Assembly (NCBI GenBank): GCA_964016885.1
Contig: OZ024742.1
Span: 8,866,001-8,930,000 of the forward strand
Length of the DNA: 64,000 bases
Direction: 5' to 3'
DNA from: Eledone cirrhosa
Lineage: Eukaryota
Under the pieces are notes generated by a model, which worked only from the letters and a program-made list of their open reading frames with translations, ran no database searches and was not told where the DNA came from. Shown here one piece after another: positions 18,454-19,580 of the stretch. A program made the position numbers and the translations under genes. How positions within the stretch are numbered: position 1 is the stretch's first letter; each line of letters begins with the position of its first letter.

Positions 18454-19420
18454 GTCCTGTATTACAGCCCCACGTTATACCCTAACGGATAGCACGATCT
18501 ATACGTGGATATTTTACGTCTTGATGTGGGAGCTAAGTATATGTTTTGTTTATTCCTTTACTTATTTGCATAGGTAAGTATATATTACCCGTATGTTTTG
18601 TGAAGGTATGTATACCTTCTCGTACGTATATTTGACTGTTATAGCGTATAATTTTTACATATTCTGGTATTTAGGGTTTGGCTATGTGTATACGGGAGTT
18701 TTGCGTCCGCGTGAGTGTGCAGGTTCGTACGTATGGTGGGTGTGTGTATATGTGTACTTCTTGTTTTAGTTGACTTACGTCTCCGAACATTCGTGTATTT
18801 ATATGTAGGTATGCGTGTGCGCTTGTTATATACGTATTTATTTACTTATATACGCTTATATAATTATTTATTTATTTGGACACAAGCATACACACACGCA
18901 CATATTTATATGTGCGTGGTTTTGTATACCCATGGTAAGGTTTTGCGTATGCTTGTGTATGTACGTATCTGTTTGCGCGTATGTATTTATTTGTTTCTAT
19001 TACTTCTGTATTGTATTTATTTACTTTGTTCTTAACTCTGTAGCGGAGATTCATTTGGTCTCCTAGTTAGAATTTTAGTCTACAATTTCTGCTATACCAT
19101 TTACGTGGTTTTGTCTTTACGTGCTATTGTTCTCCACGCTCCACATATGACTAATTATCTTCGTTTTTTCGTTCATTGCCAGAGAACGTCTCTATGCACA
19201 ACCTAAGAGAACATTAGTCTACGACCTCTTTTATACCATAATCGTGGTTTTGTCTTTGCGCGTAATTGTTTTTCACCGCTCCTATTAATGACGTATTATT
19301 CGTTTTTTCCCGTTCTTTGCCAGCGAACGTTACCACGAACCAAAGTATCGTCTTCCTGTCTTCCTCCGGTTGCAACGTTTTTTGAAATATCCAGTTCTGC
19401 GTTTACAGATTGACTTTGTT

Positions 19421-19471
19421 AGTTTCAGAAGATCCCGTTAAGGGTGAAAGCAGCGATTCTTTGCTTAAACT
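19421..19471 (+). ncRNA. Hammerhead-like fold (variant core CAGAAGA) in the inverted arm
   Basis: Same fold as 16353-16403. Stem I extends through acagattga/ttaatctgt around a bulge. Confidence 0.55.
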
Positions 19472-19580
19472 TTAATCTGTTATTTTAATAAATATTTGCT
19501 CTACGGTTCTTATATATTTGATATATATTTTCCTTATCGAGCCCTCTTTGGATTTTAGTCTTCAATTTTATTATTATTAC

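What the first reader, a model, noticed from the sequence alone, without database searches (positions are those of the whole stretch)
19405..19480. Extended hammerhead fold with a non-canonical CAGAAGA core in the Naiad terminal repeat, kept in three copies
Seen: acagattga-[ctttgtt bulge]-agttt CAGAAGA t-ccc-gttaa-ggg-t GAAA gca-(9 nt)-tgc-T-T aaact-ttaatctgt. All three helices of a type I hammerhead form, including a true stem III and a distal stem I with an internal bulge, which is where loop-II tertiary contacts sit in extended hammerheads. The core has A at the normally conserved U4 (CUGANGA becomes CAGAAGA), a U.U pair closing stem II, and a predicted cleavage triplet CUU. The same core occurs in the other arm (16353-16403, minus) and in a more diverged copy (about 51667-51750, minus). 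In that copy the bulge and loop III changed and stem II has one substitution, while stems I and III, the distal helix and the A4 core were kept. Known: Penelope-like elements carry hammerheads in their terminal repeats. Inference: this is a family-level core variant rather than decay, either an unrecognised active hammerhead variant or a non-cleaving fold used in replication.
Basis: partly seen in the sequence, partly recalled or inferred. Interest (0 to 1): 0.8.

Follow-up and report, generated by a model that had tools for sequence, protein, structure and literature searches.

The report
Altered-core hammerhead in Penelope retroelement
About 20,000 copies of a Penelope-type jumping gene in this animal genome carry a hammerhead-shaped RNA motif with A in place of the normally fixed core base U4, kept unchanged while the neighbouring loops drifted, so it is likely a weakened but still-used self-cutting RNA, although cutting is untested.

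Summary
The motif is real, but the element is a Hydra-clade Penelope-like retroelement (RT, C-terminal GIY-YIG), not a Naiad. A4 is the family state: 18,996 genomic matches with A against 192 with another base. Across four subfamilies whose flanks differ at 49 of 115 positions, 0 of 56 core and stem positions differ, against 12 of 23 loop, bulge and N7 positions; N7 is the only core base that changed. Relatives are canonical: U4 in 64 of 65 Hydra-type motifs from metagenome loci, never A, and in a second family of this genome. The U.U closure is normal for the clade; the CUU triplet is a second departure. New here: many copies start exactly at the first base of stem I with an extra G, which suggests the capped RNA start, so the 5' copy would lack the distal helix. 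No stem covariation, no RNA data, no cleavage test. Best reading: an attenuated, possibly protein-assisted hammerhead variant (0.5); rival: a non-cutting fold kept for another job (0.3).

The parts
19405..19480 (+). Type I hammerhead-type motif with A4 core, in the inverted 5'-truncated terminal repeat (a passenger copy that points away from the ORF)
   Evidence: sequence
19426..19432 (+). 5' core box C3-A4-G5-A6-A7-G8-A9; A4 at 19427 replaces the canonical U4
19421..19421 (+). First base of proximal stem I; inferred capped transcription start of the family (many copies begin here with an extra G)
   Evidence: the cap reading is inference
19464..19467 (+). Predicted cleavage triplet C16.2-U16.1-U17 and cut between 19466 and 19467 (untested)
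   Evidence: geometry; the triplet differs from GUH in 44 of 45 canonical relatives
19496..19580 (+). Optional ~85-nt tail; family copies end either at 19495-equivalent or at 19580-equivalent, both downstream of the predicted cut
18455..19495 (+). Right arm: inverted copy of the 3' repeat, 1041 nt, 98.75% identical to the left arm
17332..18458 (-). 5'-truncated ORF: RT C-terminal part (YRDD), CxCx5C linker, C-terminal GIY-YIG with CxxC and CxH
16329..17369 (-). Left arm: sense 3' repeat of the element, ending in (TA)n
16344..16419 (-). Sense-strand 3' copy of the motif (C3 at 16398)
51654..51782 (-). Short solo copy of a slightly older subfamily, motif at 51669-51748 (C3 at 51727) with private changes

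Best explanation
The motif is the terminal-repeat hammerhead of a high-copy Hydra-clade Penelope-like retroelement, with A fixed at core position 4, and it likely still folds as a hammerhead and likely cuts only slowly or only with help from the element's protein. Shown: position and geometry match Hydra-clade hammerheads; A4 is fixed; core and stems are invariant across diverged subfamilies while loops change; genomic copies run through the predicted cut. Inferred: transcription starts, capped, at the first base of stem I, so the 5' copy of the motif lacks the distal helix and only the read-through 3' copy has the extended fold. Inferred: A4 and the CUU triplet slow cleavage, which would spare the cap and the full-length template; residual cleavage would trim or destroy a share of tandem transcripts. 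Untested: any cleavage.
For: A at position 4 in 18,996 matches against 192 with another base, split 34 T, 38 G, 28 C in the first 100 listed, as neutral decay would give. A4 in 30 of 30 old copies found by DNA similarity (29 without the query), N7 = T in 14 of them. Four subfamily consensuses: 0 of 56 core and stem positions differ, 12 of 23 loop, bulge and N7 positions differ (Fisher p = 3e-8), flanks 49 of 115. The 14 other core bases never change while 11 of 22 other unpaired bases do (p = 0.002), so the constraint goes beyond base pairing. G8, G12 and the C3-G8 pair, the residues given catalytic roles in PMC6961537 and PMC9901934 (passages), are intact. A natural U4C variant lowers activity in vitro yet supports viroid infectivity (PMC3088659, passage). 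A Penelope-like hammerhead cleaved only with the element's protein and cleavage was not needed for insertion in vitro (PMC11167929). The family is young: many unbroken 713-codon frames among 107 matches at 97-100% identity.
Against: No cleavage or RNA data. In a saturation mutagenesis of another hammerhead, all single changes in the CUGA turn gave low activity and only the C3-G8 swap was rescued (PMC9901934, passage; per-mutant values not seen). Two departures that probably both weaken cutting coincide (A4, CUU). No two-sided compensatory change in any stem; only a one-sided A>G keeping a G.U pair in 11 of 41 old copies. That N7 is the one core change rests on a single substitution (about 1 in 15 by chance). 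The hammerhead fold is predicted 2.6-3.1 kcal/mol above the free ensemble, though canonical relatives have a median of 4.5. The region overlaps the inferred transcription start, so part of the conservation may be at DNA level.
Confidence: 0.5

Rival explanations
1. The fold no longer cuts to any useful degree and is kept as a structure, for example as the site the element's protein binds to start reverse transcription just downstream; A4 is a tolerated or selected off switch.
For: Mapped 3' ends lie 29 or 114 nt beyond the predicted cut, and 19 of 30 ORF-bearing copies run upstream through it. Mutagenesis passage on the CUGA turn. Cleavage was dispensable in vitro for another Penelope-like element. 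With A4 the core can self-pair (predicted P = 0.2-0.4 in the young subfamilies against 0.03 or less with U4).
Against: The canonical family in the same genome shows the same uncut anatomy (0 of 30 copies begin at its cut), so this does not separate the readings. A binding scaffold would not obviously keep all 14 other core bases. The self-pairing is weak in the old subfamilies (P 0.06 or less).
Confidence: 0.3
2. The conservation and A4 come from overlapping signals of another kind: a core promoter around the start site, or a splice acceptor, since C3-A4-G5 reads CAG after a pyrimidine-rich stretch.
For: Inferred start at the first base of stem I in an initiator-like context (consensus recalled). 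The bulge is pyrimidine-rich in all four subfamilies. In Drosophila virilis Penelope an intron ends at the 5' side of helix I and the promoter is internal (PMC4209133; PMC2377424 passages).
Against: It does not explain the invariant stem III, the 3' strands of stem I or the GAAA box; loop II differs by one base between subfamilies, which a strictly spaced downstream promoter element would not favour. No set of copies sharing an upstream exon at either AG was seen among the 81 junctions printed.
Confidence: 0.15
3. A dead relic: the ribozyme was inactivated in the founder and the sequence only hitchhikes with the element.
For: Hammerheads may merely parasitise these elements (suggested in PMC8557442, passage); stems show invariance, not covariation.
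Against: 0 of 56 against 12 of 23 and 49 of 115 changed positions across subfamilies; old and young ORF fragments are only about 69-75% identical in DNA (single decayed copies).
Confidence: 0.05

Closest known systems
Type I hammerheads of Hydra-clade Penelope-like elements (Craig et al. 2021, PMC8557442, File S2)
   Same: Position near the 3' end before (TA)n, sense strand, three helices, U.U closing stem II in many, A or U at N7.
   Different: All 26 Hydra rows of File S2 have a CTGA core and a GUH triplet. This family has A4, a G15.2-C16.2 pair giving CUU, a longer loop III and a 9-bp distal helix.
Hydra-1_Obim and other Hydra families (PMC8557442)
   Same: Domain order and motifs (RW[KR], DKT, CxCx5C, CxxC/CxH), (TA)n targets, inverted 5'-truncated copies.
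   Different: A different family by eye (protein start and hammerhead differ); unit 3,259 bp, above the usual <3 kb.
Hammerhead of Poseidon from Anolis carolinensis (Frangieh et al. 2024, PMC11167929)
   Same: Two 3' ends defining a tail; insertions made from uncut RNA.
   Different: That motif is shown to be a protein-assisted ribozyme with C3 and G8 tested; other clade; tail 30-40 nt in the literature against about 85 here.
Natural hammerhead core variants: U4C (viroid), U3-A8, A6C, U10.1-U11.1 (Perreault et al. 2011, PMC3088659; Naghdi et al. 2020, PMC7151607)
   Same: A single core departure in an otherwise complete hammerhead, with low but real activity in those cases.
   Different: U4A is not named in the passages read (Figures 5, S6, S7 not seen); those variants are rare single sequences, this one is fixed in about 20,000 copies.
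Naiad elements (PMC8557442)
   Same: Penelope-like, (TA)n targeting, tandem and inverted structure.
   Different: Naiads have an N-terminal endonuclease and a DKA motif; neither holds here.

Membership tests
Naiad PLE | GIY-YIG endonuclease N-terminal to RT | tested here: not met
   RT first, YIG in the C-terminal part of a 709-aa ORF
Naiad PLE | DKG motif modified to DKA | tested here: not met
   DKT
Hydra PLE | Single ORF, RT then C-terminal GIY-YIG | tested here: met
Hydra PLE | DKT motif and RWK motif | tested here: met
   DKT exact; RWR in place of RWK, aligned with RWK of homologues (definition)
Hydra PLE | CxCx5C linker; CxxC and CxH around the conserved E and N; no CCHH | tested here: met
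   read from the alignment; absence of CCHH judged by eye
Hydra PLE | Insertion into (TA)n | tested here: met
Hydra PLE | Placement in the Hydra clade on an RT tree with published references | not tested
   No tree built; nearest homologues are 39-56% identical and those with names are cnidarian
Hydra PLE | Canonical hammerhead in the terminal repeat | tested here: not met
   A4 fixed; this is the exception reported here
Type I hammerhead ribozyme | Three helices around the core, ends in stem I | tested here: met
   pairing by sequence and invariance; not the predicted minimum-energy fold
Type I hammerhead ribozyme | Core C3 U4 G5 A6 N7 G8 A9, G12 A13 A14, A15.1-U16.1, H17 | tested here: not met
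   all met except U4, which is A
Type I hammerhead ribozyme | Covariation in stems | tested here: inconclusive
   stems invariant across four subfamilies; one one-sided change
Type I hammerhead ribozyme | Tertiary contact between stem I and loop II | not testable with these tools
   bulge and loop II both vary between subfamilies; no contact identified
Type I hammerhead ribozyme | Site-specific self-cleavage after H17 | not testable with these tools
   needs an assay; the genomic end test is uninformative

The most novel reading that the evidence does not exclude
A working hammerhead with adenine at position 4, gated by where transcription starts: the capped 5' copy begins inside stem I, lacks the distal helix and stays off, while the read-through 3' copy gains the helix and cuts, with the element's protein. 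Such cores are invisible to CUGANGA descriptors, so retroelements reported to lack hammerheads may carry variant ones.
Probability: 0.25. Interest if true: 0.8.

Novelty: new variant of a known kind. Interest (0 to 1): 0.55.

Why it matters
What hammerheads do for Penelope-like elements is unresolved: the literature read ranges from processing tandem transcripts to mere parasitism. This family is a natural experiment. It amplified to over 20,000 copies with a core change that mutagenesis says should cripple cutting, yet held every other core base fixed. If it cuts, U4 is not obligatory and search descriptors are too strict. If it does not, the fold has a second, non-catalytic job in retrotransposition. 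A canonical family in the same genome is a ready control, and the RNA is about 76 nt.

Tried and rejected
Rfam: whole-window scan dominated by microsatellite matches (150 of 273 rows listed, none a hammerhead); no hammerhead in the focused scan. Pfam gave nothing useful for the ORF. DNA search with the young motif returned nothing, probably because common words are skipped. Expression: no RNA holder listed, which is no evidence either way. Contigs of other runs gave no usable cross-species test: organisms B and C had 1-12 contigs laid, and tables were cut. Apparent revertants: 922 matches with a canonical core box are not a U4 subfamily in the sample seen; all 15 loci read are inversion junctions without the 5' strand of stem I, 14 centred on position 4. 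Cut-site ends as a test of activity: 1 of 100 copies begins near the cut, at background rate, but 0 of 30 do in the canonical family, so the test is uninformative. Folding explanations for A4: U4 would cost about 3.3 kcal/mol through mispairing with loop III in the two old subfamilies, 1.0 in the middle one, and nothing in the youngest: inconsistent, not adopted. One search was mis-aimed and hit another repeat. A subfamily with a different 6-nt loop II was seen in two duplicate loci only and was not counted. A third Hydra family (785-codon frames) has a CTGATGA box upstream of its ORF but no convincing three-helix fold. No covariance model or tree was built. Papers asked for and not held: (among them Lunse et al. 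on Penelope hammerhead variants, which may bear on novelty). No measured U4A rate was found.

Full report
Observation. The motif is present as described at 19405-19480 (+), with C3 at 19426, A4 at 19427 and the predicted cut at 19466|19467. A strict descriptor finds 2 sites in the window against 0.025 expected. The copies at 19405-19480 and 16344-16419 are the ends of one 1041-nt inverted repeat. The third copy belongs to a slightly older subfamily and carries private changes, one of which breaks a distal pair. Energy models do not single out the hammerhead fold, but they do no better for canonical relatives (median penalty 4.5 against 2.6-3.1 kcal/mol here).

The element. Between the arms lies a 5'-truncated ORF on the minus strand. 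Full copies elsewhere in the 3.0-Gb genome have a 709-aa ORF in a 3,259-bp tandem unit, starting 193 nt after A7. RT comes first and the GIY-YIG domain last, with DKT, RWR, CxCx5C, CxxC and CxH. These match the definition of the Hydra clade in Craig et al. 2021 (PMC8557442, section 11) and exclude Naiad. No tree was built. Homologues are 39-56% identical (120 of 504 listed), and those with names are cnidarian.

A4 is the family state. A 26-mer over stems II-III has 22,330 exact matches and the 29-mer after the cut 26,894. With the stem I context fixed, position 4 is A in 18,996 matches and another base in 192, split 34 T, 38 G, 28 C in the first 100 listed (my count). The 922 matches with a canonical box are inversion junctions in all 15 loci read.

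Selection. A DNA search with one old copy returned 40 matches, of which 30 were fetched; all 30 have A4 (29 without the query; ranking by likeness to an A4 query favours this slightly), and 14 have T at N7. Copies were sorted into four subfamilies, 3, 6, 12 and 10% from their own consensus (169 copies, a few old ones mis-sorted into the youngest group). Among the four consensuses, 0 of 56 core and stem positions differ, 12 of 23 bulge, loop and N7 positions differ, and 49 of 115 ungapped flank positions differ. The 14 other core bases are invariant while 11 of 22 other unpaired bases vary (p = 0.002). The subfamilies are related, so these p-values are descriptive. There is no two-sided compensatory change; a one-sided A>G keeping a G.U pair occurs in 11 of 41 old copies.

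Relatives are canonical. All 26 Hydra rows of File S2 of PMC8557442 have CTGA cores (supplement part 2). Of 79 metagenome loci encoding relatives (80 best of 423), 65 hold a motif under a descriptor free at position 4: 64 T, 1 C, 0 A. Among 45 distinct canonical motifs 28 close stem II with U.U and 44 have a GUH triplet. So U.U is ordinary and CUU is a second departure. A second Hydra family in this genome (about 48% protein identity over the C-terminal part; 3,898 matches to its end) has T at position 4 in 25 of 25 copies.

Where the RNA starts and ends. Mapped 3' ends lie 29 or 114 nt past the predicted cut; of 30 ORF-bearing copies 19 run upstream through the cut and none begins at it. Among 100 copies anchored just after the cut, 1 begins near the cut (background rate) and 29 begin within 14 nt over the core box and the 5' strand of stem I, about nine times background, with peaks at the first base of stem I and at a fold-back site. 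Genome-wide 2,919 copies have a non-reference base just before stem I; in the first 100 it is G in 58, C in 23, A in 19 (my count). Of 30 such loci read, 28 are junctions and 19 of these carry G; after removing six where the flank could supply the G, 13 of 22 remain (p = 0.001). An extra 5' G is the known mark of reverse transcription of a cap (recalled), and the context resembles an initiator (recalled). I infer a capped start at 19421-equivalent. The canonical family behaves alike: 0 of 30 at its cut, 11 of 30 (two duplicates) at the 5' edge of stem I or the core. Missing cut-site ends therefore say nothing about activity. An initiator-like YAGY lies within 10 nt before C3 in 17 of 53 relatives against 66 of 714 control windows. 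A scan note on another genome had pointed to the same start position; I read it after noticing the clustering and before measuring it.

Mechanism. With a start at stem I, the 5' copy has only the 5-bp proximal stem, while the 9-bp distal helix can form only in read-through RNA; that helix is nevertheless invariant, so the read-through copy is under constraint (inference). Cutting at the 5' copy would remove the cap, and cutting at the 3' copy would remove the ends where copies begin, so a slow ribozyme is plausible. Literature: single changes in the CUGA turn gave low activity (PMC9901934, passages); natural U4C is weak in vitro but viable (PMC3088659, passages and section 8); metazoan Penelope hammerheads cut poorly in vitro (PMC4209133, parts 1-2 of 4); one is protein-assisted and dispensable in vitro (PMC11167929, parts 1-2 of 4). 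I put 0.5 on an attenuated working ribozyme, 0.3 on a non-cutting scaffold, 0.15 on overlapping promoter or splice signals, 0.05 on a relic.

Novelty. Searches showed no report of a natural U4A hammerhead or of this family. The library lacks most subscription papers, Lunse et al. was not held, and Figures 5, S6 and S7 of PMC3088659 were not seen. Other papers were seen as passages only (PMC7151607, PMC6765202, PMC6961537, PMC2377424, PMC1636495, PMC11014351, PMC13481778; bioRxiv 10.64898/2026.07.22.740005 part 1 of 5 and passages). It is an exception to the statement that canonical hammerheads are universal in the Hydra clade. Verdict: new variant of a known kind, real and under constraint, activity untested; interest 0.55.

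Noticed in passing
window 16154-16221 (+), core box 16160-16166: A copy of a second Hydra family with a canonical CTGATGA hammerhead ends in the same (TA)n tract, directly beside the element studied; a natural control for assays.
   Followed up: yes
L079-L093, e.g. L092:1450-1600: Hundreds of short fold-back insertions are perfect palindromes centred on core position 4, reading T on one strand and A on the other; probably self-priming of cDNA that ended two bases past C3.
   Followed up: partly
L294-L317, e.g. L306:1072-3270: A third, very young Hydra family (785-codon frames, about 3.6-kb unit, 150 of 150 scored matches 100% identical over 90 aa) has a CTGATGA box upstream of its ORF but no clear three-helix hammerhead.
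   Followed up: partly
L144-L222: An initiator-like YAGY sits within 10 nt before C3 in 17 of 53 canonical Hydra-type hammerheads against 9% background, hinting that transcription often starts at stem I in this clade.
   Followed up: partly
L151:2168 (+): A well-paired hammerhead-shaped motif with C at position 4 about 330 nt upstream of a Hydra-type ORF; the same locus has a canonical motif at 4813.
   Followed up: no
window 19069-19330 (+) and 16494-16755 (-): Two diverged tandem repeats of about 139 nt (76% identical) in the 3' repeat just upstream of the motif; role unknown.
   Followed up: no
L223-L252: In the old subfamilies loop III and stem III are complementary over 9 nt to the 5' strand of stem I plus the core if position 4 were U; chance, or a trace of an ancestral switch.
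   Followed up: partly
window 7678-8817 (+), 26577-27515 (-), 39452-40588 (-), 52420-53949 (-): Fragments of other retroelements (RVT_1 or zf-RVT matches); 35599-37238 and 52402-54024 are inverted copies of one element at about 94-95% identity. These were not classified.
   Followed up: partly
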